The translations under genes were made by a program, and so were the position numbers. Under the pieces are notes generated by a model. The model made no database searches and had not been told where the DNA came from. It saw only the letters and a list, made by a program, of their open reading frames with translations. DNA of 64,000 nucleotides from an uncultured bacterium (GTDB lineage: Bacteria > Fidelibacterota > Marinisomatia > Marinisomatales > TCS55): assembly GCA_964539305.1 (NCBI GenBank), contig CAZIIM010000003.1, forward strand, positions 17,700-81,699, given 5' to 3'. This document shows, piece by piece, positions 17,284 through 29,852 of this stretch (the first letter of the stretch is position 1; the number at the start of each line of letters is the position of its first letter).

Positions 17284-18264
17284 CTAGCGACGTTTAAACA
17301 CCAGAACGGATTCCGTCCAGAGATCCTCAAGCGTATTCGGTTCCAGACCCAGCGTCTGTTCCTGTTCCCGGTAACAGTCTGGAAAATCACCACAAATTCG
17401 GAATTGTTGCGTCAGCGAGAGTTCATTATCTATGAGAGTGTAATGATACCCATTGTCAAAACAATCCAGTTCAAAACATTCTGTAATGATAAGTGTTGTA
17501 TCGGTTGCCACCCACTCAATATCCCTGGTATAAGAACCTCCATAGGGGTTACGATTGGTCATTTTGCCGGTTCCATCCCGGTTCAAAACCAACGTTATTA
17601 AAAGTGGCTCTTGCCCGTCCCTGATAATGACCCCCGGTTGTTCGTCCAGAAGATAGGGTACACCGGCAGTAATTGCTTCTCCCTGTTTAGACAATGTCCC
17701 CGCAAGAACTACCATTCGGGAAGAATCAATAATGACATCAGAATCAATGGCTACCTCCCGATAAAGGGTGTCTTGATTAATTGTCACCGTCCGATTGTTA
17801 TTTGTCAAGATGTAATTAAACGTTCCTCCTGCATAGGGATAGATTTCATTCCGCACCCGCTTGGAGAGAGAGGAACGGTCAAACTGACTCAGGACCGGGC
17901 GGTAGTCCTGTATGTTGTAATTGTACTCCAGTTCCGGGCTCCGGTAGTCCACGTGGATGTTGGTAAAATCTTCATTTTGGAAGACAGAAAAATATTCCAT
18001 TGTAACCGAATCCAGAAAGGCGCCGTTATCAAACTCTGATAACCTTAAATCACCCTGGGCCGGAAGCCAGGGGAAATAAGCTAACTGGGACTGATTTACC
18101 AGCAGATAGGTGCCTCCGGAAGATTCTGTCAACTCCCAGGTCCCAACCAGTGGATCCGTTTTCTTCTTTTTATCCTCGCAACCGTAAAAAATAAGGAAAA
18201 GCAGAAGACTAAGGACCAATATGAAGCGTTGCGACAGATTTGGAATCGGGTTGTACCTTATCAT
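17284..18264 (-). CDS. Hypothetical lipoprotein
   Basis: Lipobox LFLIFYGC followed by a GTWEL lipocalin-like start. I recognise no family. Confidence 0.5.
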   Translation of the reverse strand: MIRYNPIPNLSQRFILVLSLLLFLIFYGCEDKKKKTDPLVGTWELTESSGGTYLLVNQSQLAYFPWLPAQGDLRLSEFDNGAFLDSVTMEYFSVFQNEDFTNIHVDYRSPELEYNYNIQDYRPVLSQFDRSSLSKRVRNEIYPYAGGTFNYILTNNNRTVTINQDTLYREVAIDSDVIIDSSRMVVLAGTLSKQGEAITAGVPYLLDEQPGVIIRDGQEPLLITLVLNRDGTGKMTNRNPYGGSYTRDIEWVATDTTLIITECFELDCFDNGYHYTLIDNELSLTQQFRICGDFPDCYREQEQTLGLEPNTLEDLWTESVLVFKRR

Positions 18265-18322
18265 GTGACTGATCAGAATTAAAGTCTAAATGGGAAAAAA
18301 TACAATGGTTACCACCGGCTTG

Positions 18323-19336
18323 TTAATCCATGAGACGATCCAGAGCCCGCCAAACCTCCTCTGTGGATATGGAATTCAGGCATAACAGTGGTTCCCGCCT
18401 GTTCCGGCATACGTTTTTTCGGCAGGGGTGACAATAAACCTGCTTGTTTATAACGGCTGTTTTGGCACCCTGGGGACCCGTTCGTTGCGGATCGCCGGCC
18501 CCGAAAAGAGAAACAGTAGGAACATCTAAATTTGCAGCAATATGTCCCAAGCCACTATCGGTGGCAATGGCTCCCCGGCAACAGCTGATGAGGGCAATCA
18601 CCTCTCTTAACGTATAATCACCACAAACCGATTTCACTTTTCCATTCCCATTGATCGCTTCAAGACGCTTCCCGGAGTCACGATCACTGGTGTTGCCAAA
18701 AATTAAAACGGGATCGGTTGCCGCCTCTAACAGCTCCCGAATCCTGGGGAAAGGAATATTGCGGGCCGACGCCACGCTAAACGGAAACAGTCCGATGGCG
18801 CGACTGAAACCTAAATGTTCCAGTTCCTCCCCAGCCCAGGCCAACTCTTCAGCTCTTAAATGGATACCCGAACGGTTCACCAATGGGGATTCGTCAAATT
18901 GATCCGGCTCTGGAAATCGTAAGAGCTCCAGATAGCGTTGAGAACGATGGAGATTCCCGGGCGGTACAGGCACCGCATGCGACAAGAACAGCGATCGTCC
19001 CTGGGCAGGGAATCCAATCCTGTGAGGGGTTTTGGATAACCAGGCGATATAGGCACTCCGGAACGAGCTGGAAAGGAGATAGATACGATCCAGTTCCAGA
19101 CTCTGCAAATCTTTTCCATATTGGGTAGTGAGTCGAAAGCCCTGTTGAAACTGTTTGTCCATTGTCAGGATTGAATTAATGGCAGGATGGGTTTCGTAAA
19201 CAGCGCCAACCCAGGTTTTGCTTAAGACAATAATTTTTGCTTCAGGATACAGGTGACGGCAGGTGTTTATAAACGGAAGCGCCATGACAGCATCTCCCAC
19301 CCAGTTGGGAGCAATGATTCCGATCCGCAGGCTCAT
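18323..19336 (-). CDS. Glycosyltransferase family 9 (LPS heptosyltransferase-like)
   Basis: N-terminal IIAPNWVGDAVMALPF and C-terminal TDSGLGHIAA motifs typical of WaaC/WaaF-type GT9 enzymes. Confidence 0.75.
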   Translation of the reverse strand: MSLRIGIIAPNWVGDAVMALPFINTCRHLYPEAKIIVLSKTWVGAVYETHPAINSILTMDKQFQQGFRLTTQYGKDLQSLELDRIYLLSSSFRSAYIAWLSKTPHRIGFPAQGRSLFLSHAVPVPPGNLHRSQRYLELLRFPEPDQFDESPLVNRSGIHLRAEELAWAGEELEHLGFSRAIGLFPFSVASARNIPFPRIRELLEAATDPVLIFGNTSDRDSGKRLEAINGNGKVKSVCGDYTLREVIALISCCRGAIATDSGLGHIAANLDVPTVSLFGAGDPQRTGPQGAKTAVINKQVYCHPCRKNVCRNRREPLLCLNSISTEEVWRALDRLMD

Positions 19337-20442
19337 GAATGCTCCAGCAGCTTTGCGATTGCATTCACCAGACGCCAGGAGGCTTTCCCATCTGCTTTGT
19401 ACAAATAGGTTTCCTGAGCTCGAAGGCGCTGAGATTGCATTTCCCCGGGGTGTTCTAGGGCATGATAGGTCAGGGACAAAACATCGGCTGGATTCTCCAA
19501 GCGGTAGGCAAAATCCACCGACTCCATCCGTTCCAGATCCAGTCTTTTGCTGAATCGTTTATAAAAAAGCCGGTGTTTCAGCCGGAGGGTAAAACATTCA
19601 GCCATGATAATGGGGCGGTCGAGCACCAGAAATTCATAGATTGTGGAAGAAATATCAGAAACCAGAACATCTGCCAGGTTGTAGTAGGGAATGATATTAA
19701 ACTCGTCCGGAGGAACCAAATATACATGCTTATAGGCCCGGGCCACCTGTTGCATTTTTTCACTCTGGTAGCGATAGCGCTGCTGGTGCCAGCTGAAACT
19801 GTGAAGTTTTATTACCAGGTTAAATTCATAGCTCAATTTTTCCAGATGCGGGATTAGCTTTTCCTGGGAGGAAGGATAAAAGGTAGGCGCAAACAGAACC
19901 GTTTTCCGTTGGGGGTCCAACCCCAGTTGGTTCAATAGATCTTCAGGAGACGTGGTTGATTGTATTAAAGGATCACACTTGGTAAAGCCAACTAGCACAA
20001 GGTTAGAATAGCCTGCCTGTTTTAATACCTCCATTCGTGACTGAGACTCCACCGCCCGTAAATCAATCCGGTCATCAATGTCACGGTAGTAGGTTTGTTT
20101 CATACCGATACCATGATAGACCATGACTGTAATAGTATTCTCGTGGGCGATCGAATGTAGTTTTCCGATATTGCCTACAACAATTACATCGAACTTCCTT
20201 CGATTCAGTTCCGCCAGCCGTTCCGCTTCATCCTCTCCGCTGACAGTGGCAATGCCCATTTCTGTACAAGCCTGCTGAAAAATGGTCTGCTCCCGCGGAT
20301 GAACAGATCGGGGAATGGAGGCGAAAATCTGGTAATCACCACGGCGACGCATTTCATCCATAATGGGAATAAAATTAGGCAGGTAGTACAAGTGGTGGCA
20401 TTCGAACAAAACCGAAATAGTTGCAGACTTTTTTAGCGTCAT
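19333..20442 (-). CDS. CDP-alcohol (TagB/TagF-type, Glyphos_transf) phosphotransferase-like protein
   Basis: VYHGIGMKQTY and VLVSDISSTIYEFLVLDRPII resemble conserved TagF-family blocks. The stop overlaps the GT9 start by 4 nt. Confidence 0.6.
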   Translation of the reverse strand: MTLKKSATISVLFECHHLYYLPNFIPIMDEMRRRGDYQIFASIPRSVHPREQTIFQQACTEMGIATVSGEDEAERLAELNRRKFDVIVVGNIGKLHSIAHENTITVMVYHGIGMKQTYYRDIDDRIDLRAVESQSRMEVLKQAGYSNLVLVGFTKCDPLIQSTTSPEDLLNQLGLDPQRKTVLFAPTFYPSSQEKLIPHLEKLSYEFNLVIKLHSFSWHQQRYRYQSEKMQQVARAYKHVYLVPPDEFNIIPYYNLADVLVSDISSTIYEFLVLDRPIIMAECFTLRLKHRLFYKRFSKRLDLERMESVDFAYRLENPADVLSLTYHALEHPGEMQSQRLRAQETYLYKADGKASWRLVNAIAKLLEHS

Positions 20443-20472
20443 GATTCCACCCGGGGTGAGGTTATCACGGCG

Positions 20473-21540
20473 TTACTTCTCCAACCCTTTCAGAAAGTCA
20501 TAAATCCGTTGTACCGATTTACCGTCGTTAAAATAGAAACAATTCTTCAGCATGGTATCATAAGGTTCAGGATCATGATCCAGCAATGCTTTGGCAACCC
20601 GGGAAGAAATAGCTGCCTTGCCGTCATAATGATTGGCAATGGTATTTACATCCAACTCTGGAGGCATAGTGTGGAGATCATCAAATTCATTGTCAATCAC
20701 CACAATCGGTTTCCGGACAATTAAATACTCATACAGGATGGAGGACGTGTCACTCAAGAGAAGGTCTGAAACGGCAAAGTCATACATGGTATCATTGGTA
20801 AGAATATTCGCCGGATTGGAAAAATAGAGGTGTTTAATTCCCTGGAACCGGGCCCAGGCTTTAAACCGTGGAATGTACTTCCGGTCAAAATAGTGAGGTC
20901 GAATAATCAAATTATAATCCCGTGTCAATTCACGGGCAAACTTTTTACCATATTTCAGTAAGGTGCCAGCTCCCCACTTCCAGGTGGGGGCATACAGGAC
21001 TGTTGGACGATCCGCGTCCTTAAACCCCAGATATTTCCGGTATTGTTCAACGTCGATATTCCCATTCACAATTTCATCAAACCGGCAGTTGCCGATTTTA
21101 ATTAACCGGTCTTCGGGAATAGAAACATTCAGGTCCTTCATTTTATGGAGGTGTTTCGGCCCGGAGATAAAATGGTAATCAAAGGTGGTTAAATCCGAAG
21201 CGTTACCTCCGTATTTTTTATCCCCCGTCCCGTGTCCCATAAAAATCGCAGTGCAAATACTTTTGTCGCGCCTGACAACCGTATTGCTGTTTGAGATTAG
21301 AATCCCGGGTAAATCAAAGGGTTCGTGATTCACGTCCTTAACCAGTATTTGGGGCGTCTGAGCGAAGAGGGGGCTGCTTGCCTGACGGCGTTGTTTCTTC
21401 CGGAGATACCATTGTAAACGCAGTTTCCGGTTCTGCTTCCGGACCACAAAACCGCCCCCCAGTTGACTATAGATCAAACGGGCAAACGAATATTCATATA
21501 CCTGGTTGGCGTAATAATAGATGGGCCTGTTCAGTTTCAT
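20473..21540 (-). CDS. TagF-type CDP-alcohol phosphotransferase-like protein (paralog A)
   Basis: FMGHGTGDKKYGG, LYAPTWKWG and LLLSDTSSILYEYLIVRKPIVVI. It is clearly paralogous to 21684..22724. Confidence 0.6.
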   Translation of the reverse strand: MKLNRPIYYYANQVYEYSFARLIYSQLGGGFVVRKQNRKLRLQWYLRKKQRRQASSPLFAQTPQILVKDVNHEPFDLPGILISNSNTVVRRDKSICTAIFMGHGTGDKKYGGNASDLTTFDYHFISGPKHLHKMKDLNVSIPEDRLIKIGNCRFDEIVNGNIDVEQYRKYLGFKDADRPTVLYAPTWKWGAGTLLKYGKKFARELTRDYNLIIRPHYFDRKYIPRFKAWARFQGIKHLYFSNPANILTNDTMYDFAVSDLLLSDTSSILYEYLIVRKPIVVIDNEFDDLHTMPPELDVNTIANHYDGKAAISSRVAKALLDHDPEPYDTMLKNCFYFNDGKSVQRIYDFLKGLEK

Positions 21541-21683
21541 GAAGCAATGGTTGGGAAATTGATATTGTTAATTTATTCCCATTCCTTCATAATTGGAAGC
21601 TATCTGCCGACCGACGTGAATAGAGAAACAGTTTTTCGGAAAAATCAATCTACCCTGACCAATGAAAAAATCGTTCTTTTAAG

Positions 21684-22724
21684 TCACGTGGTCTGAAATG
21701 TGGGCAGGGAGTGAATAAAATCAACAATACGGCCTGTACTCTTTCCATCATTAAAATAGTAACAATTATTCCGCAGCTGTTCATAATCAGCCCGGACATG
21801 CTGACTGATGGCATTTTGGACAACCGTTTCAATGGGAGGAGAAGTATTTTTTTCAAAACGGGTGGCGATCGAATGAATATTCAATTCCGGAGGCATGGGG
21901 TGCAGATCTTTAAACCCCGTTTCAACAATGACGACCGGATTCCCTGTAATCAGGTATTCATACGCCGTGGAAGAAGTATCACTGATCAGAAGATCCGAAA
22001 CGGCGAACGCCTCCATGGTATCATGCTGAAGAAAGGAAGCCGGGTTTGAGAAGTACACATTACGGATCTTATTTACCCATATCCAGGCCCTCATTTTAGG
22101 AATCAGGCGACGATCGTGAAAATGGGGTCGAATGATCAAATTATATTCGGGTGTCAATCTTTCACAGAACAGCTGATAATGAGAAAGCAGGGAACCGTTG
22201 CCCCACCTCCAGGTGGGAGCATATAAAATTGTTTTCCGGGTGGGATCTTTAATTCCAAGATATTGGGAGATAGCCTCCCGCTTTAATTCACCCTTCACGT
22301 ACGCATCAAACCGGGGATTACCCACCCTGACCAATTTTTCCTCCGGTATTTCCAGACCTTCATCCTTCAATTTCGCGATTTGCTTTTCGCCCGAAACGAA
22401 TAAAAAATCGTACGAAAGAAGATTTTCAACGGAACCGCCATAGCGTTTATCGCCGCTTCCGTGACCCAGGAAGAGGGTGGTACTCACCTGGGAATCATGG
22501 GGGATCTTGGTATTGCTCATGGAAATCAATACCCCTGCTAGCGGATCGGATTGGAAATCGTGAATGATTACCTGGCTTTCGGGCCAATGCCGGAAATACC
22601 ACTTAAAACGAAGGTAGTGTTTTGTATCCCTGGCAACAAAACGTCCGCCCAGTTCGGCATACACGGATTTACCGTGGGAATACTGGTACTCTTTATTGGC
22701 GAAATAATAAACCCCGTTCCCCAT
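21684..22724 (-). CDS. TagF-type CDP-alcohol phosphotransferase-like protein (paralog B)
   Basis: FLGHGSGDKRYGG, LYAPTWRWG, LLISDTSSTAYEYLITGNPVVIV and a YYFNDGKS tail shared with paralog A. Confidence 0.6.
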   Translation of the reverse strand: MGNGVYYFANKEYQYSHGKSVYAELGGRFVARDTKHYLRFKWYFRHWPESQVIIHDFQSDPLAGVLISMSNTKIPHDSQVSTTLFLGHGSGDKRYGGSVENLLSYDFLFVSGEKQIAKLKDEGLEIPEEKLVRVGNPRFDAYVKGELKREAISQYLGIKDPTRKTILYAPTWRWGNGSLLSHYQLFCERLTPEYNLIIRPHFHDRRLIPKMRAWIWVNKIRNVYFSNPASFLQHDTMEAFAVSDLLISDTSSTAYEYLITGNPVVIVETGFKDLHPMPPELNIHSIATRFEKNTSPPIETVVQNAISQHVRADYEQLRNNCYYFNDGKSTGRIVDFIHSLPTFQTT

Positions 22725-22778
22725 CTCAGTCTGTTCCCGAATCGACTATTCTTACTAAGGAAATGTCATGTCTGCGGA

Positions 22779-23492
22779 TTATCCGCGCTGTGTTAAGTGG
22801 TTCCAGGCAGCGGGTGTGTCCAAATCGAGCCAGAACGACTCGCCAATATCAATCCCCCCCATCTTACCGTTTTGAATCAAAAGATTACAGGCATCCGACA
22901 GGCTGCACCGGCCTAATTGCCGGGCGGACTCCAGGGCAGTGAAAAAATCAGGATGGCATTTGAAGACGCCACAGTCCACCGCATCAAATTGGTCTAGGTC
23001 CTTGGACATGGCGGTGATCTTCGTTCTGTTTTCAGGATCCACGGTCACTTTCATCGCATCCTCCAGGTCGAAGATTTGATCAATCTTAAAGTCCAGTGCC
23101 ACTTGGGATTGGTCTTCCCCCAAGTCCGATTGCACAACTTTTTCCAGAAAAGCGGCTTCATAGTAGTGATCACTCATGGAAAGGATGAAAGGGTCGTCCA
23201 GGGGGATAAACGCTTCCGCTGCCAGGACGCTGACGCCGTTCGCCAGATCCCAGCGGGGATTGTACACCGTTTCAATTGCAGACGTTTTGATGCTCTCCTC
23301 CAGGTATTTTTCCAGTTCATCGTGATGATAACCGGTGACCACCACAATATCATGAATCCCCACACTGACCGCATTCTCCACAAGATGACGGATCAGGGGT
23401 TTCCCCTTCACCGGCAGTAATGTTTTCGGCTTCCCTGAAGAGACGGATCGGGCACGGGATCCCTCCCCAGCGGCAATAATCACCAGCTTCAT
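22779..23492 (-). CDS. Sugar/polyol-phosphate nucleotidyltransferase; putative CTP:inositol-1-phosphate cytidylyltransferase by context
   Basis: N-terminal IIAAGEGSRARS...GKPKTLLPVKGKPLI (the GxGxR NTP-transferase signature) and a C-terminal WLDLDTP. The gene starts 6 bp after the MIPS stop. Confidence 0.55.
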   Translation of the reverse strand: MKLVIIAAGEGSRARSVSSGKPKTLLPVKGKPLIRHLVENAVSVGIHDIVVVTGYHHDELEKYLEESIKTSAIETVYNPRWDLANGVSVLAAEAFIPLDDPFILSMSDHYYEAAFLEKVVQSDLGEDQSQVALDFKIDQIFDLEDAMKVTVDPENRTKITAMSKDLDQFDAVDCGVFKCHPDFFTALESARQLGRCSLSDACNLLIQNGKMGGIDIGESFWLDLDTPAAWNHLTQRG

Positions 23493-23498
23493 TTGCAG

Positions 23499-24803
23499 TT
23501 ATTCGTCGTAATAATCCAGACCCAAATGGGTGATCAGCTCTTCTCCCATGATATGACGAAGGGTGTTTTTCAGTTTTGCCAGCTGAACGAACAAATCATT
23601 TTCAGGATACAATTCGGGCAGTGTCATGGGACTTTTAAAATAAAAGGATAGCCATTCCTGAATCCCTTTCATTTCCGCCCGTTTGGCTAAGTCCATAAAG
23701 AGTACCAGATCCAGGGCAATGGGGGCGGCCAGAATGCTGTCCCGACACAGGAAATCCACTTTAATCTGCATGGGATATCCCAGCCAGCCGAAAATGTCAA
23801 TATTGTCCCAGCCTTCTTTATTATCCCCCCGCGGTGGATAGTAATTGATTCTGACCTTGTGGTAAAAATCCTTATATAAATCAGGGTTCAAATCCGGTTG
23901 TAATATGTAATCCAGGACGCCCAATTTGCTCTCTTCCTTGGTTCGGAATGCCGCAGGGTCATCCAAGACCTCCCCATCCCTGTTGCCGAGAATGTTGGTG
24001 GAGAACCACCCCCGGATGCCGATCTGGCGGGCTTTCAGCCCCGGTGCCAGAATGGTTTTGATCAGGGTTTGACCCGTCTTGTAGTCTTTCCCGGCAATCG
24101 GTGTAGCTGTTTTCTGTGCCAGTTCCATCAGAGCGGGAATATCCACAGTCAAACTAGGCGAACCATTCACATAAGGAATCCCCCTTTTCAGGGCGGCATA
24201 GGCATAAATCATACTGGGGGAAATTCCGGGATCATTATTCTCGAGACCCACCTCGAATTTTTCCAGCGTCGAATGAACCTCCTGAGGCGTAATAAAAACT
24301 TCCGTACTCCCACACCAGATCATCACGTTGGCACGGGTTTGATTTTCCGTCGTAAAAGTATCGATATCAGCCCCGACCTGTTCTGCCAGTTCCATTTTAT
24401 TTTTTCCGGATTTCACAAAAGATCCCTCCAGCCGGCGGACGTACTGCTCATCAAAGACAGCTGGCAAGACTTCCAATCCCTGTAAAAAATCCTTTAACTC
24501 CTCGATCTGGGTTTTCTCCAATACCCCCGTCCGGAGGCAGATGTCATAGAGGGTTTCCTGATTAATATCCCACCCCATGAATACCAGATCTTCCAGACCG
24601 GCCAGGGGGACAAAATCCTTTACAAGAGGAACCCGGTTTTCGGTCCGTTTCCCCAGGCGAATCGTTCCCATCTGGGTCATGGATCCAATCGGTTTGGCCA
24701 GGTTGCGCTTAATGGCTTCCACCCCGGCGATGAAAGTACTGGCGACTGCTCCCATCCCGGGAATCAGTACACCCAGTTTACCTTTGGGTGTTTCATATTT
24801 CAT
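23499..24803 (-). CDS. myo-Inositol-1-phosphate synthase (inositol-3-phosphate synthase)
   Basis: 434 aa. Rossmann start GVLIPGMGAVASTFIAG, a SMTQMGTIRLG block and NILGNRDG, all characteristic of bacterial/archaeal MIPS. Confidence 0.8.
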   Translation of the reverse strand: MKYETPKGKLGVLIPGMGAVASTFIAGVEAIKRNLAKPIGSMTQMGTIRLGKRTENRVPLVKDFVPLAGLEDLVFMGWDINQETLYDICLRTGVLEKTQIEELKDFLQGLEVLPAVFDEQYVRRLEGSFVKSGKNKMELAEQVGADIDTFTTENQTRANVMIWCGSTEVFITPQEVHSTLEKFEVGLENNDPGISPSMIYAYAALKRGIPYVNGSPSLTVDIPALMELAQKTATPIAGKDYKTGQTLIKTILAPGLKARQIGIRGWFSTNILGNRDGEVLDDPAAFRTKEESKLGVLDYILQPDLNPDLYKDFYHKVRINYYPPRGDNKEGWDNIDIFGWLGYPMQIKVDFLCRDSILAAPIALDLVLFMDLAKRAEMKGIQEWLSFYFKSPMTLPELYPENDLFVQLAKLKNTLRHIMGEELITHLGLDYYDE

Positions 24804-24835
24804 TATTCAATGCTCCTAACTGGTATGATCAAGTT

Positions 24836-25909
24836 TTAATCATCCTGATCAATTTCGTGATTAAGTTGTTTAAATGCTTCAATAACGGTTTCAGGGGAAA
24901 TGGATTCCAGTGATAATCCGGTGGCCGCCAGGAGTCTTGCTCTGACCCCATAGGGTGCATAGCGCTGCTGGTTTCGTTGATCGCCCGAATACAACCCGAT
25001 TACCGGTGTCTTCACGGCTGCCGCTACATGAATCAGGGAGGTATCCGGTGAAATGAATAATCGGCACTGTCGCAGCAGGGCCCCAGCGGCTAAAAGATCA
25101 GGTGAAACCAATGGATACTCTATCTTACCCTGAAATTGTTCTTTTATCAGACTTGCTGTTTTCGCTTCACGATCCATGGCAAACACGGCTATCCTTATAT
25201 CACGCTGATATTTCAGGATCGTTTCCACCAGCGTGGTCCAATGTCCTGCCGGCCAATTCCGATAATGCCCCCCTGCTGAAAGGTTAATGGCTACAACTGA
25301 ATGAACCGAATCCTCTTTACACAAAGGGGGACCAGAGACCGGAGGGAAATAATTTGGCACCGGGAATTTAACCCCGTAGGGACGGAGCAATTCAGCATTC
25401 TTTTCAATAATATGGGCCCCTTCCCGGTTGACAAGCGCATGGTTGTAATACCGATCGGCACGGGGTTGTGAAAGGCAGACTTTCACCTCAGCATTCACCA
25501 ATGTTGCTAAACGGTAAGCAGTAATGGAAGGATGATCTTTTGGATTGTAAAAGAGATCATAATGCTGTTTGTCCAGGGATTCTTTTAACGACTTCTGATT
25601 GGTTCGGTAGGTCCAGGTATTTCGAATAAAAGGTAAGGATTTAAACAGGTATTGGTTATGCCGCGAGCATAAAATATCAATCTTGGTATCGGGGAAATGC
25701 TGGTGAAACCCGTGCAGGAAGGGCATTAACAAAACAGCATCTCCCAATTTTTCCTGGGCCTGGACCAGGAGGGTACCTGGATTGGGAGGCAGGTCTCTCA
25801 CCGGCAGTGGGACTCGCCAGGGCTGGTATAACCGCACCAGGAGTTTGCGGGGATAATGGCGGGGATTCTCCCGCAGGGAACGGGCCTGGTTAACGGAGGG
25901 ACTGGGCAT
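24836..25909 (-). CDS. Glycosyltransferase family 9 (heptosyltransferase-like)
   Basis: EKLGDAVLLMPFLHGF N-terminal motif and PDTSLIHVAAA C-terminal motif. Confidence 0.65.
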   Translation of the reverse strand: MPSPSVNQARSLRENPRHYPRKLLVRLYQPWRVPLPVRDLPPNPGTLLVQAQEKLGDAVLLMPFLHGFHQHFPDTKIDILCSRHNQYLFKSLPFIRNTWTYRTNQKSLKESLDKQHYDLFYNPKDHPSITAYRLATLVNAEVKVCLSQPRADRYYNHALVNREGAHIIEKNAELLRPYGVKFPVPNYFPPVSGPPLCKEDSVHSVVAINLSAGGHYRNWPAGHWTTLVETILKYQRDIRIAVFAMDREAKTASLIKEQFQGKIEYPLVSPDLLAAGALLRQCRLFISPDTSLIHVAAAVKTPVIGLYSGDQRNQQRYAPYGVRARLLAATGLSLESISPETVIEAFKQLNHEIDQDD

Positions 25910-27002
25910 ACTTTTCGAAAAAATAGTTTTCTAATTCATCCAGCATTTTTTCCACCGGGAAGCGGGTGCGGATGTGTTCCCGGGCGGCAGATCCCCAGGC
26001 TTGAATTTCCGGTTCCCTCTGGTGTTCCAGGGCATAGACCATGGCATTCCGGATCGCCTCAATATTAAAAGGTTCAAAAATAAATCCCGTTTTTCCATGA
26101 TCCATCAATTCCGGAACACCGTTCACCCGGGCTGCCAGGACCGGTTTACCCAGAGCCATACCCTCCATAACGACGTTGGGCATTCCCTCCTGCCGGGAGG
26201 TAATAATGATAAAATCAGCCGCTTTCAATATGGGTAATAAATTGCTCTGAAACCCGATGAACTTGACCTGGCCGTTAAGGCGTCTTTTTTGGGTCAGGCG
26301 CATCAATTGCTCCCGCTGTTTCCCCCGGCCGGCAATTAGTACCGTAAAAGGACGCGGCGGTTTCTTCATTCCTGCCACCGCCTCCACCAGCAAATCAAAC
26401 CCTTTTTGACCCGTGAGCCGACCGGCAGCCAAGAAAACGGTGTGATCCTCCGGGATATTCCACAGCGTCCGGATGTCAACCGACGGCAGACCATTGGGGA
26501 CGGAAATACCGTTGTAAATCACTTTGGTTTTATCTTTCGGCATCCAGGAGTAAGCATTATAGGCTGCCCGAATGGTCTCCGAATTGGTAATAATTCCATC
26601 CACCAGCCCCATTGTCTTTTTATGTTTCCACTTATCCGAAATGAGCTGGATGCCGTTCCGTGCCAGGATTACGGGAACCTTTGCCCAGCGGGCGGCCAAT
26701 CCTGCCACACGGATATCCTTATTCAGGTTCAAAACGATTACGTCCACCTGTTCCCGCTTCAAAATGCGTTTGGTGTACCAGATCTTGAAAGGACTGTAAT
26801 CCGCATAAATATTCAGGGGAATTACCTCCAAACCTGCTTCCCGGGCCCGCTGGAGCAGAACCGATTTGGCTTTCCCTGAAAGGATCACCCGGTGGCCGCG
26901 CTTCTTCAGGCCGGTGGCAGCTGTGATCATCCATTTTTCACCGCCTCCCCACTTCGGGGCGGAAATTGAATTACTGAAAAAAATCGTCAGTCTATTCTTC
27001 AT
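25890..27002 (-). CDS. Glycosyltransferase family 4 (GT-B fold)
   Basis: E-x7-E region SRQEGMPNVVMEGMALGKPVLAARVNGVPELM, with a GGGEKW N-terminal block. Confidence 0.8.
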   Translation of the reverse strand: MKNRLTIFFSNSISAPKWGGGEKWMITAATGLKKRGHRVILSGKAKSVLLQRAREAGLEVIPLNIYADYSPFKIWYTKRILKREQVDVIVLNLNKDIRVAGLAARWAKVPVILARNGIQLISDKWKHKKTMGLVDGIITNSETIRAAYNAYSWMPKDKTKVIYNGISVPNGLPSVDIRTLWNIPEDHTVFLAAGRLTGQKGFDLLVEAVAGMKKPPRPFTVLIAGRGKQREQLMRLTQKRRLNGQVKFIGFQSNLLPILKAADFIIITSRQEGMPNVVMEGMALGKPVLAARVNGVPELMDHGKTGFIFEPFNIEAIRNAMVYALEHQREPEIQAWGSAAREHIRTRFPVEKMLDELENYFFEKYAQSLR

Positions 27003-27016
27003 TCCAAATGAACAGA

Positions 27017-28870
27017 TTATGAGCCGGGAGAACCGGCGAACTGAATATCGTACAATCTCCGGTAAAGTCCCGCTTTCTGGTACAATTCATCGTGGGTCCC
27101 CATTTCAATAATCCGGCCCCGATCCAGAACGATAATCCGGGAGGCATTCTGAACCGTAGAGAGTCGGTGGGCGATAATCAGTGAGGTTCGGTCCCGCATC
27201 AGAATTTCAATTGCTTGCTGCACCATTTTTTCCGATTCCGTATCCAGAGCAGAGGTAGCTTCATCCAGAATCAAAATAGGCGGATTTTTCAGAATTGCCC
27301 TGGAAATGGCCAGGCGTTGTTTCTGGCCTCCGGAAAGCTTGACTCCCCGCTCCCCAATGATGGTATCGAAACCCTGAGGCATTTGTTCAATGAATTCCAG
27401 AGCATGGGCCGCCCGAGCCGCACTCCGAATTTGCTCATCATCCACTTCCTTCACCCCGTAGGCAATATTATTCCGGACCGTATCGTTGAACAAAATCACT
27501 TCCTGAGTTACAATTCCCATTTGACTCCGGAGCGATTTTAGTCGCACGGAACGGATATCATGACCATCAATCAAAATGGCACCGGAGGTTACGTCGAAAA
27601 AACGCGGAATCAGATCGGCAATGGTGGATTTTCCCGCGCCGGAAGGACCCACCAGGGCCACAGCCTCCCCTTTCTGAATGGTGAAATTAATATCCTGGAG
27701 GACCCGTTCATCCCCATCAGAATATTCGAAATAAACGTTTTTAAACTCGATTGAATGATTAAAACGTTCCAACTCAATAGCATCCGGCAGATCAACAATT
27801 TCGGGGGGGGTGTCCAGTAACTGGAAAACCCGCTCCGCTGAGGCCAGCCCCATTTGGATCCGCACATTAACATTACTGAGCATTTTAATGGGCCCTAACG
27901 TGGAGAACAGAATAAGAATGAAACGAATGAAATCCTCGGCTGAAATCCCCTTTTGCGAGAGAACCTCCATGCCACCGAACCATAATAAAACCACCCCGAT
28001 AATGACACCGAAACTTTCGGTAATCGGTCCCGCCAGCAAATCCAGGCGTGCCCGACGGTACAGTAGTTTAAAATAGTTACGACTTTCACGGGTAAACTTC
28101 TGGATTTCCTCCTGTTCCATTACGAAAGCCTTCACGATCCGAATCGAAGAAAGGGTTTCCGTCAGAATATCCATGATCTGGGCGATTTTACGTTGAGTCC
28201 GGTGAGATTTTCGTCGAATACTACGGCCGATATTGATGATTACCACCCCTGCAACCGGTATGATAATAACGGCAATCAGAGCCAGTTTCCAGCTGATGAT
28301 AAACAGGAGAATAACGAACATGAGGATATTGATGGGCTCCACGAACAGTTTTTGAAAGCTCACGGACAGGGTGCCCTGCATTTGTTGCACATCGTTAATG
28401 ATGATGGAGCTGATTTCACCGGTGCGCTTCTGGCTGAAATATCCCAGAGACAAGGTGTTGATATGCTGGTATAGCTTATCCCGTATTTCCGTGACCAGTT
28501 TTAGCTGCACATAGCGAAGGAGAATATTCTTCAGATATAAAAACAGATTTTTGGCAAAAAAGACCAGGAGAAGCGTAACACACAATATTTTCAACGACTC
28601 CAGGGGAGTATCACGCAGAATGAGCAGATTGGTCCAGTATTTCAGTTTGCCGTTCAGCGACAAGTTCGGCTCAGACATCCACTGGGTTTGCTGGGCAACA
28701 ATTTTATTGAAATCAGTGAGAATATTATTAATGAGGGAGGCGGTTAACCAAATAGAGGTACTGTTCAGGATGACATAGACGAAGGCAGACAAGGTGGAGG
28801 CCAGCAGGAAAAGCCAGTATTTAGAGAGAAGGCGGCCTAGTCGTTTATAAATGGAAGGGGGCATATTCAA
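27017..28870 (-). CDS. msbA: ABC transporter, fused permease/ATPase, MsbA-like lipid A/LPS-core flippase
   Basis: A six-TM N-terminal domain, then Walker A GPSGAGKST, signature LSGGQKQR and Walker B ILILDEATSALD. Confidence 0.75.
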   Translation of the reverse strand: MNMPPSIYKRLGRLLSKYWLFLLASTLSAFVYVILNSTSIWLTASLINNILTDFNKIVAQQTQWMSEPNLSLNGKLKYWTNLLILRDTPLESLKILCVTLLLVFFAKNLFLYLKNILLRYVQLKLVTEIRDKLYQHINTLSLGYFSQKRTGEISSIIINDVQQMQGTLSVSFQKLFVEPINILMFVILLFIISWKLALIAVIIIPVAGVVIINIGRSIRRKSHRTQRKIAQIMDILTETLSSIRIVKAFVMEQEEIQKFTRESRNYFKLLYRRARLDLLAGPITESFGVIIGVVLLWFGGMEVLSQKGISAEDFIRFILILFSTLGPIKMLSNVNVRIQMGLASAERVFQLLDTPPEIVDLPDAIELERFNHSIEFKNVYFEYSDGDERVLQDINFTIQKGEAVALVGPSGAGKSTIADLIPRFFDVTSGAILIDGHDIRSVRLKSLRSQMGIVTQEVILFNDTVRNNIAYGVKEVDDEQIRSAARAAHALEFIEQMPQGFDTIIGERGVKLSGGQKQRLAISRAILKNPPILILDEATSALDTESEKMVQQAIEILMRDRTSLIIAHRLSTVQNASRIIVLDRGRIIEMGTHDELYQKAGLYRRLYDIQFAGSPGS

Positions 28871-28939
28871 ATTCCGGTTGAACCGAGTTTACGTCTTTTC
28901 TGAGTGAATGTCATTCAAATTTAAAATGGAATCTAAGGG

Positions 28940-29374
28940 TCAGGAACCTTCTGCCGGAATGAAAACCATTTTTTTATGGGGAATACCAGCTTCATAAAAC
29001 TGGTCACCACGGACCTGGAATCCTAATCGCTCATAAAAGTGAATGACAGATTCCTGCGCATTCAGATAGATTTTCCCTTCGTCCTCCAACTCGTTTAAAA
29101 TATATTTTACCAGGGCTTTCCCCACACCCTTCCCCCGGTATTCTTTTAACACGGCGAAACGCTCCAGTTTCATTCCCTCATCAGTAAGACGCCAGCGGGC
29201 CGTTCCAACCGGTTTACCATTGATCAGCGCCAATATGTGGGAAGCCTCCCGGTCGTGCTCATCCAGTTCAATGCGCTGGTCCACCTTTTGCTCATCCACA
29301 AATACCCGGAGCCGGATTTCATGAGCCTGTTCCAGTTCCTTTTCAGTTTTAATCTTTATTATTTGGAGTTCCAT
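28940..29374 (-). CDS. GNAT-family N-acetyltransferase
   Basis: YRGKGVGKALV acetyl-CoA-binding motif; 144 aa. Confidence 0.8.
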   Translation of the reverse strand: MELQIIKIKTEKELEQAHEIRLRVFVDEQKVDQRIELDEHDREASHILALINGKPVGTARWRLTDEGMKLERFAVLKEYRGKGVGKALVKYILNELEDEGKIYLNAQESVIHFYERLGFQVRGDQFYEAGIPHKKMVFIPAEGS

Positions 29375-29465
29375 CTGGAATGCATCATTTTTCTTTCCTT
29401 AGGAGTCTATATCAAAATGGCATTGAATTGGAAACAATTTATCCTGATTTACAGTAAATTTTTCC

Positions 29466-29846
29466 ATGAAACGGGGTCATAAACAAATATTGGTCGTTGG
29501 AGATCGCATCCTCATCCGGCCGGATAAGGGGGAGAAGAAATCCAAAGCCGGTCTCTATTTACCCCCCAGTGTTATTGAAAAGCAGGAAGTCCGGAGCGGC
29601 GTGGTGGTGGAGGTGGGACCCGGCATACCAATGGGCAACCCGGGTGACCAGGCTGAGGAACCCTGGGAGCAGGAGGAAAAGACTCCCGTGAAATACATCC
29701 CTCCCCAGGCTGAAATTGGTGACCTGGCCCTTTTTCTGAATAAAGCTGCAATTGAAATCAAAATCGAAAATCAGGACTATTTAATTGTCCCCCAATCCGC
29801 CATTCTGATTCTCATCCCGGATGACCTGAATGAATTGGCAGAGTAG
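29466..29846 (+). CDS. GroES/Cpn10-like protein with an internal acidic insertion (orphan, no groEL nearby)
   Basis: ILVVGDRILIRP...KSKAGLYLPPSV...SGVVVEVGPG...GDLALF...DYLIVPQSAILILI follows the GroES pattern. About 25 extra residues (NPGDQAEEPWEQEEKTPVKYIPP) sit in the middle. Confidence 0.55.
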   Translation: MKRGHKQILVVGDRILIRPDKGEKKSKAGLYLPPSVIEKQEVRSGVVVEVGPGIPMGNPGDQAEEPWEQEEKTPVKYIPPQAEIGDLALFLNKAAIEIKIENQDYLIVPQSAILILIPDDLNELAE

Positions 29847-29852
29847 AACTTT

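What the first reader, a model, noticed from the sequence alone, without database searches (positions are those of the whole stretch)
18323..28870. MIPS + cytidylyltransferase + three TagF-like phosphotransferases embedded in an LPS-core/MsbA string: candidate CDP-inositol-dependent phospho-inositol glycopolymer pathway
Seen in the sequence:
- Nine co-directional, tightly spaced or overlapping minus-strand genes run in the order msbA-like, GT4, GT9, myo-inositol-1-phosphate synthase, a GxGxR nucleotidyltransferase, three TagB/TagF-type (Glyphos_transf-like) proteins, and a second GT9.
- The nucleotidyltransferase starts 6 bp after the MIPS stop.
- The last TagF-like gene overlaps the final GT9 by 4 nt.

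Established knowledge:
- MIPS makes inositol-3-phosphate.
- CTP:inositol-1-phosphate cytidylyltransferases make CDP-inositol, known from di-myo-inositol-phosphate solute synthesis.
- TagF-family enzymes transfer polyol-phosphates from CDP-polyols (CDP-glycerol, CDP-ribitol) onto glycans in teichoic acids and teichoic-acid-like Gram-negative capsules.
- GT9 enzymes and MsbA act on the lipid A core.

Inference:
- The locus lacks a TagD/TarI-type gene, a CDP-alcohol phosphatidyltransferase and a DIPP synthase.
- The simplest reading is therefore that CDP-inositol is the donor for the TagF-like enzymes, which would give inositol-phosphate decoration or an oligomer on the LPS core or a related glycolipid.
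- I know of no characterised TagF-family enzyme that uses CDP-inositol, so this would be a new donor specificity and a new envelope modification.
Basis: partly seen in the sequence, partly recalled or inferred. Interest (0 to 1): 0.8.

Follow-up and report, generated by a model that had tools for sequence, protein, structure and literature searches.

The report
Inositol-phosphate envelope pathway using TagF-like enzymes
A marine Fidelibacterota (SAR406) genome carries a conserved gene set that most likely makes CDP-inositol and passes it to teichoic-acid-type (TagF-like) transferases sitting among LPS-core genes, which would attach inositol phosphate to the cell envelope, a modification not reported in the literature I could search.

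Summary
Nine co-directional minus-strand genes (18323-28870) encode an MsbA-like exporter, GT4, GT9, myo-inositol-1-phosphate synthase (MIPS), a 237-aa nucleotidyltransferase, three Glyphos_transf (TagF-family) proteins and a WaaF-like GT9.

The nucleotidyltransferase is closest, in sequence and predicted fold, to the two crystallised CTP:inositol-1-phosphate cytidylyltransferases (IPCT). It shares their C-terminal signature residues.

Its family has two context types that almost never mix:
- Fused or adjacent to a CDP-alcohol phosphotransferase, the classical IPCT/DIPPS type.
- Followed by TagF-like genes, in Fidelibacterota, Cloacimonadota, Fermentibacteraceae and a few other MAGs.

Across 95 TagF-linked loci, a TagF-like gene lies directly downstream in 83. 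MIPS lies upstream in 72 of the 84 loci with enough flank. MsbA-like, GT9, GT4 or GT2 genes often accompany the trio.

No TagD-type gene, second nucleotidyltransferase or CDP-alcohol phosphotransferase occurs in the 64 kb.

The best reading is MIPS -> IPCT -> CDP-inositol -> TagF-like transfer of inositol phosphate to an envelope glycolipid, probably the LPS core. The donor inference is well supported. The acceptor, and the donor of the divergent third paralog, are uncertain. No biochemistry exists, and I found no published precedent.

The parts
27017..28870 (-). MsbA-like ABC exporter (617 aa); first gene of the string
   Evidence: Pfam ABC_membrane 142 bits plus ABC_tran 121 bits. The best NCBIfam hit is TIGR02203 MsbA_lipidA at 526 bits, below its 602 cut-off. 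An MsbA-like gene lies near the triad in 22 of 45 loci of at least 12 kb. In complete genome CP070787.1 it follows an LpxL-type Lip_A_acyltrans gene.
25890..27002 (-). GT4 glycosyltransferase (370 aa)
   Evidence: Glycos_transf_1 121 bits and Glyco_transf_4 63 bits. No transmembrane segment; net charge +24. Orthologs occur in 19 triad loci.
24836..25909 (-). GT9-family glycosyltransferase (357 aa); overlaps the GT4 gene by 20 nt
   Evidence: Glyco_transf_9 79 bits. Heptosyltransferase I/II/III NCBIfam models score 47-58 bits, all below cut-off.
23499..24803 (-). myo-inositol-1-phosphate (inositol-3-phosphate) synthase (434 aa)
   Evidence: NAD_binding_5 318 bits and Inos-1-P_synth 108 bits. 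Top PDB hit is 7NWR inositol-3-phosphate synthase, E 2e-147, followed by yeast and A. fulgidus MIPS. MIPS lies upstream on the same strand as the NTase in 72 of 84 informative loci, within 400 nt in 70.
22779..23492 (-). Predicted CTP:inositol-1-phosphate cytidylyltransferase (IPCT-like, 237 aa); stand-alone, no DIPPS domain
   Evidence: NTP_transf_3 and NTP_transferase. Best NCBIfam hit is IPCT/DIPPS, 96 bits over its N-terminal half. PDB sequence hits: 2XME E 3e-16 and 4JD0 E 1e-15. AF2 model pLDDT 94; Foldseek top hits 4JD0 (TM 0.85) and 2XME. IPCT signature residues are conserved.
21684..22724 (-). TagF-like phosphotransferase 1 (346 aa); recent paralog of TagF-like 2 (46% identity)
   Evidence: Glyphos_transf 71 bits. 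Weak TarL, TarF and TarB hits. Carries the family invariants H, APT, H, SDxSS, E, DG and R.
20473..21540 (-). TagF-like phosphotransferase 2 (355 aa); ortholog of the transferase found directly after the IPCT-like gene in most related loci
   Evidence: Glyphos_transf 68 bits spanning profile positions 50-365. AF2 pLDDT 90; Foldseek top hit TagF 3L7K, E 5e-15, TM 0.65. The family profile hits only TarL, Cps3D and TagF in the PDB. No transmembrane segment; net charge +13. A TagF-like gene, nearly always of this type, sits directly downstream of the NTase in 83 of 95 loci.
19333..20442 (-). TagF-like phosphotransferase 3 (369 aa; divergent, 19% identity to TagF-like 2); donor uncertain
   Evidence: Glyphos_transf 58 bits. 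Shares the invariant His, SDxSS and DG..R motifs. In relatives its orthologs travel with GT9b and a second nucleotidyltransferase that is absent from this window.
18323..19336 (-). WaaF-like GT9 (heptosyltransferase II type, 337 aa); 4-nt overlap with TagF-like 3
   Evidence: Glyco_transf_9 112 bits. TIGR02195 heptsyl_trn_II scores 157.5 bits, above its 134.6 cut-off. Orthologs occur in 29 triad loci.

Best explanation
The locus encodes a cytoplasmic pathway that installs phospho-myo-inositol on an envelope glycolipid.

Proposed steps:
1. MIPS cyclises glucose-6-phosphate to L-myo-inositol-1-phosphate.
2. The stand-alone IPCT-like nucleotidyltransferase condenses it with CTP to give CDP-inositol.
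3. The soluble, probably membrane-peripheral TagF-like enzymes transfer inositol phosphate from CDP-inositol to hydroxyl groups of a lipid-linked glycan and release CMP. TagF-like 1 and 2 are the confident candidates; TagF-like 3 is possible.
4. The glycan is built at the inner face of the inner membrane by the co-encoded GT4 and GT9 enzymes. It is most likely the lipid A-core.
5. The MsbA-like exporter then flips the product.

At about 350 aa the TagF-like proteins are the size of TagB/TarF single-addition enzymes, not the long polymerases. I therefore favour one to a few phosphodiester-linked inositol residues over a long polymer.

Shown here: family membership of every protein, operon-like organisation, and conserved linkage of MIPS, IPCT-like and TagF-like genes.

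Inferred: the identity of the donor, the phosphotransfer reaction, the acceptor, and the export route.
For: Donor side:
- MIPS is unambiguous.
- The NTase is nearest to characterised IPCTs by HMM, sequence and predicted structure.
- Residues D142, K148, D173, F177 and W221 match both IPCT crystal structures. They are invariant in 23 TagF-linked and 62 CDP-alcohol-phosphotransferase-linked homologs (K148 is R in two of the 62), and mostly differ in a co-resident paralog.
- In an NJ tree the ingroup containing both crystallised IPCTs separates from that paralog in 98% of bootstraps. The core TagF-linked clade has 100% support.

Transferase side:
- All three proteins pass the Pfam gathering threshold for Glyphos_transf.
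- A profile of the clade hits only TarL, Cps3D and TagF in the PDB.
- The TagF-like 2 model matches TagF best.
- Two His residues, APT, SDxSS, E and DG..R are invariant.

Linkage:
- The homologs closest outside the TagF-linked clade (37-42% identity to the query profile) are fused or adjacent to PF01066, the IPCT/DIPPS architecture.
- In the TagF-linked clade that position is occupied by a TagF-like gene in 83 of 95 loci.
- MIPS lies upstream in 72 of 84 loci, or in 12 of 16 lineages when dereplicated at 60% identity.
- The reciprocal search seeded with TagF-like 2 recovered the same NTase neighbour in essentially every locus with enough flank.
- The 64-kb window contains no alternative CDP-alcohol supplier and no other consumer of CDP-inositol.

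Envelope context:
- MsbA-like, GT4, two GT9 (one above the WaaF equivalog cut-off), GT2 in 14 relatives and an LpxL-type gene in CP070787.1.
Against: - There is no biochemical or chemical evidence.
- An IPCT-like fold does not determine substrate. CpgD has the same nearest structure and makes CDP-glycerate (PMC12275187).
- The NTase scores only slightly better against IPCT than against archaeal GlmU-type models (96 vs 91 bits).
- The position of the crystallised IPCTs inside the ingroup is unresolved (35% bootstrap). LicC, TarI, GlmU and CpgD sequences were not included in the tree.
- Twelve of 84 loci lack an adjacent MIPS.
- Many pelagic loci carry only MIPS-NTase-TagF2 plus a PF18723-like ORF, with no glycosyltransferase or MsbA-like gene nearby. 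The LPS-core acceptor is therefore not a conserved feature of the triad.
- TagF-like 3 orthologs co-occur with a second nucleotidyltransferase of unknown substrate in every informative relative outside the window's own lineage.
- The MsbA-like protein falls below the MsbA equivalog cut-off.
Confidence: 0.58

Rival explanations
1. Same donor, different acceptor. TagF-like 2 uses CDP-inositol but transfers inositol phosphate to a lipid (diacylglycerol or ceramide, giving an inositol phospholipid) or to inositol-1-phosphate (giving di-myo-inositol phosphate phosphate, a solute precursor). It would then be a non-homologous replacement for the membrane CDP-alcohol phosphotransferase, not an LPS-decorating enzyme.
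For: - In the sister group the gene at the same position is a CDP-alcohol phosphotransferase, which does exactly these reactions (PMC9246714).
- Many marine loci are bare MIPS-NTase-TagF2 triads with unrelated flanks.
- IPCT/DIPPS genes have been noted in deep-sea Thaumarchaeota genome papers (listed; I did not read these papers).
Against: - As far as I know, all characterised TagF-family enzymes act on glycan or polyol hydroxyls of lipid-linked polymers.
- In many lineages GT2, GT4, GT9 and MsbA-like genes are interleaved with the triad. A GT2 gene sits between the NTase and TagF-like 2 in 14 loci.
- The window has three TagF paralogs, which a single head-group or solute reaction would not need.
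Confidence: 0.2
2. Two unrelated pathways lie side by side. MIPS and the NTase supply CDP-inositol to a CDP-alcohol phosphotransferase encoded elsewhere, for inositol lipids. The TagF-like enzymes use CDP-glycerol or CDP-ribitol made by a TagD/TarI-type enzyme encoded elsewhere.
For: - Only 64 kb of the genome was visible, so remote genes cannot be excluded.
- One relative, Cloacimonadales locus L015, has a PF01066 gene beside the cluster.
- Public annotations call these proteins CDP-glycerol glycerophosphotransferases, but that is only a family name.
Against: - The NTase->TagF adjacency holds in 83 of 95 loci across several phyla, often with overlapping or near-abutting genes. It survives rearrangements of everything else.
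- TagF-linked and PF01066-linked NTases almost never share a context.
- No TagD motif, TarI/IspD-type gene or second NTase occurs in the window.
Confidence: 0.1
3. The nucleotidyltransferase activates something other than inositol phosphate, for example phosphoglycerate as CpgD does, or another polyol or sugar phosphate. The TagF-like enzymes transfer that group, and MIPS serves another purpose.
For: - CpgD shows that IPCT-like enzymes can have other substrates.
- 12 of 84 loci have no adjacent MIPS.
- The NCBIfam margin of IPCT over archaeal GlmU-type models is small.
Against: - MIPS sits upstream on the same strand in 72 of 84 loci, 6 nt away in the window.
- C-terminal signature residues are shared with both crystallised IPCTs and are identical to those of the PF01066-fused homologs.
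- Some PF01066-linked loci also carry MIPS (L020, L033, L064).
Confidence: 0.08
4. The three PF04464 proteins are not phosphotransferases. They would be GT-B glycosyltransferases or epimerase-like enzymes that merely resemble TagF.
For: - Secondary weak Pfam hits to Epimerase_2.
- UDP-GlcNAc 2-epimerases appear among the Foldseek hits.
Against: - PF04464 scores are 2.6-3.2 times the gathering cut-off, while Epimerase_2 is below its own.
- The clade profile matches only TarL, Cps3D and TagF in the PDB.
- TagF is the top structural match by about five orders of magnitude in E-value.
- The TagF-family His, SDxSS and DG..R motifs are invariant.
Confidence: 0.04

Closest known systems
Wall teichoic acid and teichoic-acid-like capsule synthesis: TagD/TarI cytidylyltransferase plus TagB/TagF/TarF/TarL or Cps3D-type TagF-like enzymes
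   Same: - The logic is the same: a cytidylyltransferase makes a CDP-polyol, and a GT-B-like PF04464 enzyme transfers polyol phosphate to a lipid-linked glycan at the cytoplasmic membrane face.
- The proteins here are PF04464 members. TagF, TarL and Cps3D are their only PDB relatives.
   Different: - The predicted donor is CDP-inositol, a cyclitol, rather than CDP-glycerol or CDP-ribitol.
- The cytidylyltransferase is of the IPCT/LicC-type NTP_transferase fold, not TagD (and differs from TarI/IspD).
- The host is a diderm FCB-group bacterium, and the neighbours are LPS-core-type genes rather than TagO/TagA/TagGH or KpsMT genes.
- The enzymes are minimal, about 350 aa, with no N-terminal membrane or oligomerisation domain.
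Di-myo-inositol-phosphate synthesis: IPCT/DIPPS of Archaeoglobus, Thermotoga and Thermococcales
   Same: - MIPS plus IPCT producing CDP-inositol.
- The NTase here is closest to these IPCTs in sequence and fold.
   Different: - No DIPPS (PF01066) domain or gene. A TagF-like gene takes its place.
- The hosts are marine Fidelibacterota and related uncultured lineages rather than hyperthermophiles, judging from the record and sample names.
- The context is glycosyltransferases and an MsbA-like exporter, not a solute pathway.
Putative alternative inositol-lipid cluster of Bacteroides vulgatus / Prevotella (Heaver et al. 2022, PMC9246714)
   Same: MIPS clustered with an NTP-transferase proposed to make CDP-inositol for an envelope component.
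   Different: That cluster pairs the NTase with a CDP-alcohol phosphatidyltransferase and a HAD hydrolase to make inositol (sphingo)lipids, and it is itself unconfirmed. Here the partner is TagF-like and no PF01066 gene is present in the window.
lic1 phosphocholine decoration of Haemophilus/Neisseria LOS (LicA-D). Named from general knowledge; not tested here beyond the weak LicC structure hit.
   Same: It works alike: a LicC-type cytidylyltransferase from the same superfamily makes a CDP-alcohol, and a soluble transferase adds the phospho-alcohol to LPS core sugars before export.
   Different: The transferase family is different (LicD versus PF04464), the substituent is different, and no LicA/LicB/LicD homologs appeared in the Pfam scans of the window.
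Caulobacter ceramide diphosphoglycerate pathway (CpgA-D; PMC12275187, PMC13228409)
   Same: An IPCT-like cytidylyltransferase (CpgD) makes an unusual CDP-activated donor for an anionic outer-membrane lipid. This shows that the fold supports new envelope donors.
   Different: The donor is CDP-glycerate and the acceptor is a sphingolipid head group. The papers I read do not state the family of the transferase CpgA. No ceramide genes were seen here.

Membership tests
TagF / Glyphos_transf (PF04464) polyol-phosphate transferases | Match to the family HMM above the curated threshold | tested here: met
   71, 68 and 58 bits against a cut-off of 22.1 for the three proteins.
TagF / Glyphos_transf (PF04464) polyol-phosphate transferases | GT-B-like two-domain fold closest to solved TagF-family structures | tested here: met
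   TagF-like 2 AF2 model, pLDDT 90. Foldseek top hits are TagF 3L7I-M (E 5e-15, TM 0.65), then Cps3D. Epimerases follow at E of about 2e-10. TagF-like 1 and 3 were not modelled.
TagF / Glyphos_transf (PF04464) polyol-phosphate transferases | Second active-site histidine (the His mutated to Ala in 3L7M) and the SD(Y/T)SS and DG..R motifs | tested here: met
   H216, S263-D264-x-S266-S267, E271, D339-G340 and R345 are invariant in 26 clade members. H216 aligns with the His of TarL 'KMHPF'. It lies beside TagF 'LRMHY', where the 3L7M variant has Ala.
TagF / Glyphos_transf (PF04464) polyol-phosphate transferases | First catalytic histidine (TagF H444 / TarL H300) | tested here: inconclusive
   An invariant His sits in a GHGxGxK motif (H103) at the expected distance upstream. 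The HMMER alignments to TagF and TarL start just downstream of it, and Foldseek gives no residue-level alignment.
TagF / Glyphos_transf (PF04464) polyol-phosphate transferases | Uses a CDP-activated polyol donor and releases CMP | not testable with these tools
   Needs an enzyme assay. The only support is context: a cytidylyltransferase gene lies immediately upstream in 83 of 95 loci.
CTP:inositol-1-phosphate cytidylyltransferase (IPCT) | NTP_transferase fold with GxGxR...K and closest similarity to characterised IPCTs | tested here: met
   - G9, G11, R13 and K23 are conserved.
- Top PDB sequence hits are 2XME, 4JD0 and 4MND.
- Foldseek top hits are 4JD0 (TM 0.85) and 2XME.
- Full-length alignment at comparable scores is seen only with the IPCTs and, slightly weaker, the archaeal ST0452-type enzymes; RmlA aligns full length at E about 1e-5.
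CTP:inositol-1-phosphate cytidylyltransferase (IPCT) | Passes the NCBIfam equivalog model NF041135 (bifunctional IPCT/DIPPS) | tested here: not met
   96 bits against a cut-off of 580. Only the N-terminal IPCT half of the model (positions 1-208 of 419) is matched, because the DIPPS domain is absent.
CTP:inositol-1-phosphate cytidylyltransferase (IPCT) | Genomic coupling to inositol-1-phosphate supply (MIPS) | tested here: met
   The gap is 6 nt in the window. MIPS lies upstream on the same strand in 72 of 84 loci, and in 12 of 16 lineages at 60% identity.
CTP:inositol-1-phosphate cytidylyltransferase (IPCT) | Catalyses CTP + L-myo-inositol-1-P -> CDP-inositol + PPi | not testable with these tools
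   Needs an enzyme assay. CpgD shows that the fold alone is not decisive.
DIP solute pathway / Bacteroides-type inositol-lipid cluster | CDP-alcohol phosphotransferase (PF01066) fused or adjacent to the NTase | tested here: not met
   No PF01066 hit or DGxxAR...GxxxDxxxD motif in the 64 kb. PF01066 is present in the sister group of NTases.
myo-inositol-1-phosphate synthase | Both MIPS Pfam domains and strong similarity to solved MIPS structures | tested here: met
   PF07994 318 bits and PF01658 108 bits. 7NWR E 2e-147, 1JKF E 2e-52, 1U1I E 5e-46.
MsbA lipid A flippase | Passes the MsbA equivalog models | tested here: not met
   TIGR02203 scores 526 bits, below its 602 cut-off. NF008381 scores 444, below 867. 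The architecture (six-helix ABC_membrane plus ABC_tran) fits, and the best hit is MsbA, so I call it 'MsbA-like' only.
LPS heptosyltransferase II (WaaF, GT9) | Passes the TIGR02195 equivalog model | tested here: met
   The 18323-19336 product scores 157.5 bits against a cut-off of 134.6. The other GT9 (24836-25909) does not pass any heptosyltransferase equivalog.

The most novel reading that the evidence does not exclude
In Fidelibacterota and related FCB-group phyla, TagF-family enzymes have replaced the membrane CDP-alcohol phosphotransferase as the consumer of CDP-inositol. Working in series, the paralogs would build an inositol-phosphate oligomer or polymer on the lipid A-core. That would be a cyclitol-based 'teichoic acid' on the outer membrane of one of the most abundant deep-ocean bacterial lineages, made from glucose-6-phosphate by a dedicated three-gene module.
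Probability: 0.2. Interest if true: 0.85.

Novelty: new variant of a known kind. Interest (0 to 1): 0.66.

Why it matters
If the prediction holds, it has four consequences.

1. It adds a third class of donor, a CDP-cyclitol, to the TagF family. So far the family is known only for CDP-glycerol and CDP-ribitol. That matters for chemo-enzymatic glycopolymer synthesis.

2. It defines a new anionic envelope modification in diderm bacteria. It also gives CDP-inositol a new fate, beyond thermophile solutes and the inositol-lipid route proposed but unconfirmed in Bacteroidetes.

3. It assigns a function to genes that are very common in marine metagenomes. Single 90%-identity clusters hold up to about 1,200 member sequences. 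They are currently annotated only as 'CDP-glycerol glycerophosphotransferase family' or 'choline kinase'.

4. It shows a clear case of non-homologous displacement, with a PF01066 partner replaced by a PF04464 partner downstream of the same activating enzyme.

The pathway is directly testable with three or four recombinant soluble proteins.

Tried and rejected
1. **HAD-IIIB phosphatase (29853-30527).** I tested whether it belongs to the pathway, by analogy with the HAD in the Bacteroides cluster or a DIPP phosphatase. It has a signal peptide and is AphA-like, hence periplasmic. Rejected.

2. **The 326-aa ORF after the last GT9 (17284-18264).** I tested whether it replaces the second nucleotidyltransferase seen in relatives. 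It has no Pfam or NCBIfam hit, and its N-terminus looks like a lipoprotein signal. It is not a cytoplasmic enzyme, so I left it out.

3. **Promoter and terminator scan of 16400-30700.** Counts were at shuffle expectation, so it says nothing about operon boundaries.

4. **Rfam scan of the window.** Only a tRNA was found and no riboswitch.

5. **Single-sequence PDB search with TagF-like 2.** It gave only a marginal TarL hit. A clade profile was needed.

6. **Structure prediction with locus-derived sequences.** I rebuilt the alignment from database hits.

7. **CpgA as a TagF-family precedent.** The two CpgD papers do not state its family, so I make no such claim.

8. **Phylogeny.** I could not include LicC, TarI, GlmU or CpgD sequences because none were available offline. 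The tree uses only a co-resident paralog as outgroup, and the position of the crystallised IPCTs within the ingroup is unresolved.

9. **Literature searches.** Searches combining CDP-inositol, IPCT, TagF/glycerophosphotransferase, LPS core and Marinimicrobia found no report of this pairing. Papers from subscription journals are not covered.

Full report
**Observation.** Spacings are 14, -20, 32, 6, 54, 143, 30 and -4 nt. This includes the 6-nt MIPS-NTase gap and the 4-nt overlap between the third TagF-like gene and the last GT9. Pfam confirms every family assignment:
- ABC_membrane + ABC_tran
- GT4
- GT9
- both MIPS domains (318 and 108 bits)
- NTP_transf_3 / NTP_transferase with a GxGxR N-terminus
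- three Glyphos_transf proteins (71, 68 and 58 bits; cut-off 22.1)
- a second GT9

NCBIfam adds three points. The last GT9 passes the heptosyltransferase II equivalog (157.5 vs 134.6). The ABC protein is best matched by MsbA but falls below its cut-off (526 vs 602). The NTase's best model is the Thermococcales IPCT/DIPPS bifunctional enzyme, matched only over its IPCT half (96 bits), just ahead of archaeal GlmU-type models (91 bits). Source names on the homologs place the window in Fidelibacterota, also called Marinimicrobia or SAR406, in the FCB group.

**The donor half.** MIPS is unambiguous: its top PDB hit is an inositol-3-phosphate synthase at E 2e-147.

The evidence on the NTase is as follows.
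- The three best PDB sequence matches are the A. fulgidus IPCT (2XME), the T. maritima IPCT (4JD0) and the A. fulgidus IPCT-DIPPS (4MND). They align over the full length.
- Next come the archaeal ST0452-type enzymes, also full length, at E 2e-14. RmlA aligns full length only at E about 1e-5.
- LicC, GalU, GlmU and most others align only over the N-terminal nucleotide-binding part.
- An AF2 model (pLDDT 94) has 4JD0 (TM 0.85, rmsd 2.7) and 2XME (TM 0.78/0.89) as best Foldseek hits.

There is a caveat. Caulobacter CpgD also has 4JD0 as its nearest structure, yet it makes CDP-glycerate (PMC12275187). Fold similarity therefore cannot fix the substrate.

**Comparative genomics, forward direction.** A scan of one genome per species with an NTase alignment returned 80 loci from more than 585 relatives. 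A context census, Pfam checks and an NJ tree split the family into two context types.
- *PF01066-linked.* In Acidobacteriota, Verrucomicrobiota, Latescibacterota, Gemmatimonadota, Nitrospirota and others, the NTase is fused to or adjacent to a CDP-alcohol phosphotransferase. Sometimes an LPG_synthase_TM domain is present as well. This is the IPCT/DIPPS architecture and that of the putative Bacteroides alternative inositol-lipid cluster (PMC9246714).
- *TagF-linked.* In Fidelibacterota, Cloacimonadota, Fermentibacteraceae, a KSB1-labelled MAG and one Desulfobacterales MAG, the NTase is followed (or in a few loci preceded) by one to four PF04464 genes and never fused to PF01066. One locus, L015, has a separate PF01066 gene nearby.

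Bootstrapped NJ gives 100% support for the core TagF-linked clade. It gives 98% for the ingroup that contains both crystallised IPCTs against a co-resident paralog, NTase2. The exact position of the IPCTs inside the ingroup is unresolved.

Seven positions (M106, H109, D142, K148, D173, F177, W221) are conserved in the 23 TagF-linked and 62 PF01066-linked sequences; K148 is R in two of the 62. Five of them match both crystal IPCTs, and most are different in NTase2. The two context types therefore very probably make the same product and differ in which enzyme consumes it.

**Comparative genomics, reciprocal direction.** A metagenome scan seeded with the TagF-like 1/2 clade gave 80 further loci, mostly marine (TARA, JGI). 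Essentially every locus with sufficient flank has the IPCT-like NTase next to the TagF-like gene.

| Measure over the 95 TagF-linked loci | Count |
|---|---|
| TagF-like gene within 400 nt downstream of the NTase | 83 of 95 |
| MIPS upstream on the same strand (loci with at least 1.4 kb of upstream flank) | 72 of 84 |
| MIPS within 400 nt | 70 of 84 |
| MIPS-adjacent, dereplicated at 95% NTase identity | 49 of 62 |
| MIPS-adjacent, dereplicated at 80% | 34 of 43 |
| MIPS-adjacent, dereplicated at 60% | 12 of 16 |

The complete genome CP070787.1 has LpxL-type acyltransferase - Sua5 - MsbA-like - MIPS - NTase - TagF-like - GT4. A closer relative (67% NTase identity) has the same nine-gene string as the window.

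**The transferase half.** An alignment of 26 clade members shows the following invariants, in TagF-like 2 numbering:
- His in a GHGxGxK motif (H103)
- APT
- a second His after a beta-strand (H216)
- S263-D264-x-S266-S267
- E271
- D339-G340
- R345

A profile of this alignment hits only TarL (3e-22), the TagF-like capsule polymerase Cps3D (7e-22) and TagF (1e-15) in the whole PDB. H216 aligns with the TarL histidine. It lies beside the TagF histidine that is Ala in the 3L7M variant. The equivalence of H103 with TagF H444 / TarL H300 is likely but was not shown residue by residue.

The TagF-like 2 AF2 model (pLDDT 90) matches TagF best (E 5e-15, TM 0.65). Cps3D comes next, and UDP-GlcNAc 2-epimerases, which share the fold, follow about five orders of magnitude weaker in E-value than TagF. 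None of the three proteins has a transmembrane segment. TagF-like 2 has net charge +13, which is compatible with peripheral membrane binding.

TagF-like 1 and 2 are 46% identical. TagF-like 3 is only 19% identical to TagF-like 2.

**What the product is attached to.** The window places the triad between an MsbA-like exporter, GT4 and GT9 on one side and a WaaF-like GT9 on the other. Among loci of at least 12 kb, 22 of 45 have an MsbA-like gene and 17 of 45 a GT9. A GT2 gene is inserted between the NTase and TagF-like 2 in 14 loci. This favours a lipid-linked glycan assembled on the cytoplasmic face, most simply lipid A-core.

The support is not universal. Many pelagic loci contain only MIPS-NTase-TagF2 plus a 297-aa PF18723-like ORF, flanked by unrelated genes. 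The acceptor is therefore the weakest part of the model. A lipid or soluble acceptor, which would make TagF-like 2 a functional replacement of the CDP-alcohol phosphotransferase, remains a serious alternative.

**Caveat on the third paralog.** Orthologs of TagF-like 3 travel with the WaaF-like GT9 and with NTase2. That holds in every informative relative outside the window's own lineage. A HAD (PF12710) gene follows in eight loci. NTase2 is a generic sugar/alcohol-phosphate nucleotidyltransferase that lacks the IPCT signature. It could serve the GT9, for example in nucleotide-heptose supply, or it could serve TagF-like 3. The window and its closest relatives lack NTase2 in the locus. TagF-like 3 therefore uses either CDP-inositol or a donor made elsewhere.

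**Absences.** Within the 64 kb there is no PF01066 gene or motif, no second NTase of this type and no TagD-type motif. Pfam was run on 50 ORFs, nearly all of those of 150 aa or more. The nearby HAD-IIIB phosphatase is a secreted AphA-like enzyme. The ORF after the last GT9 looks like a lipoprotein. Neither belongs to the pathway.

**Mechanism proposed.**
1. Glucose-6-P is cyclised to Ins-1-P by MIPS.
2. Ins-1-P plus CTP gives CDP-inositol (NTase).
3. TagF-like 1/2, and possibly 3, transfer inositol phosphate to sugar hydroxyls of a core glycolipid built by GT4 and the GT9s, releasing CMP.
4. The MsbA-like exporter flips the product.

The small size of the TagF-like proteins resembles single-addition TagB/TarF enzymes. 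I therefore expect decoration or a short oligomer rather than a long polymer. Only family membership and conserved linkage are shown; each chemical step is inferred.

**Novelty.** Full-text searches found CDP-inositol only in three contexts: thermophile solutes, the proposed Bacteroides lipid route, and comparisons with CpgD. Nothing links it to TagF-family enzymes, LPS or Marinimicrobia. Public annotations are generic: 'CDP-glycerol glycerophosphotransferase family', 'choline kinase', 'sugar phosphate nucleotidyltransferase'.

I classify the finding as a new variant of a known kind. The known kind is the pairing of a cytidylyltransferase with a TagF-like transferase. What is new is the predicted donor, the host group and the envelope context. 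My confidence is about 0.7 that CDP-inositol is the donor for the TagF-like 1/2 clade, and about 0.58 for the full statement including an envelope glycolipid acceptor.

Noticed in passing
L005:11814-12590, L009:14193-14930, L085-L100, L125, L127, L133, L165 (relatives); absent from the window: A second module recurs in relatives: TagF-like 3 ortholog, WaaF-like GT9 and a second nucleotidyltransferase ('NTase2'). NTase2 lacks the IPCT signature, and its best NCBIfam hit is archaeal GlmU-type. A HAD (PF12710) gene often follows. Its substrate is unknown. In the window's lineage a lipoprotein-like ORF sits in its place.
   Followed up: partly
L008:3837-4727, L101:9044-9916 and 19 other loci: In 'minimal' marine loci a 290-297-aa ORF matching PF18723 (5-hmdU DNA kinase helical domain, about 77 bits) directly follows TagF-like 2 and overlaps it in L101. 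It may be an uncharacterised fourth component of the triad. No homolog occurs in the window.
   Followed up: partly
L020-L084 (genome loci): IPCT-like NTases fused or adjacent to CDP-alcohol phosphotransferases are widespread in MAGs of Acidobacteriota, Verrucomicrobiota, Latescibacterota, Gemmatimonadota and Nitrospirota. Some carry an 820-aa LPG_synthase_TM + PF01066 protein. This suggests CDP-inositol-based lipids or solutes well beyond thermophiles and Bacteroidetes.
   Followed up: partly
window 54377-57489 (minus strand): A mercury-resistance operon: MerR-like regulator (56707-57489), MerT-HMA fusion (56034-56648) and MerA-like pyridine-nucleotide disulphide oxidoreductase with an N-terminal HMA domain (54377-56062). 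It lies next to a low-GC stretch (42-46% at 56-60 kb), so it may have been acquired horizontally.
   Followed up: no
window 4615-16426: A cluster that looks like peptidoglycan or amino-sugar scavenging. It holds an AmiA-like amidase, a 979-aa GH3 + beta-lactamase-domain fusion, a second GH3 (NagZ-like), a ROK-like protein, SpoIID, two SSF symporters and a NagX-like transmembrane glucosamine N-acetyltransferase (189 bits, below cut-off).
   Followed up: no
window 19333-20442: The public gene call for TagF-like 3 is 342 aa (100% identical over 93% of the ORF), starting 27 codons downstream of the ATG used here. That shorter start would remove the conserved N-terminal 'VLFExHHLYYLPNF' segment present in orthologs.
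   Followed up: partly
window 43730-46199: A FakA-like (Dak2 + FakA_M) protein fused to DegV (596 aa) is followed by PlsY. This would be a fused fatty-acid kinase and binding protein next to the acyl-phosphate acyltransferase.
   Followed up: no
window 543-2180 and 61979-63724: An arylsulfotransferase (ASST) family protein with a C-terminal FlgD-Ig domain, and a 581-aa multihaem cytochrome (c7 / MtrC-like domains) at the other end of the window.
   Followed up: no
L015 (Cloacimonadales MAG) 1-13675: This is the only TagF-linked locus that also has a PF01066 gene beside the cluster. It additionally carries four TagF-like genes, MIPS, the IPCT-like NTase and NTase2. It may be a lineage where CDP-inositol feeds both kinds of transferase.
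   Followed up: no
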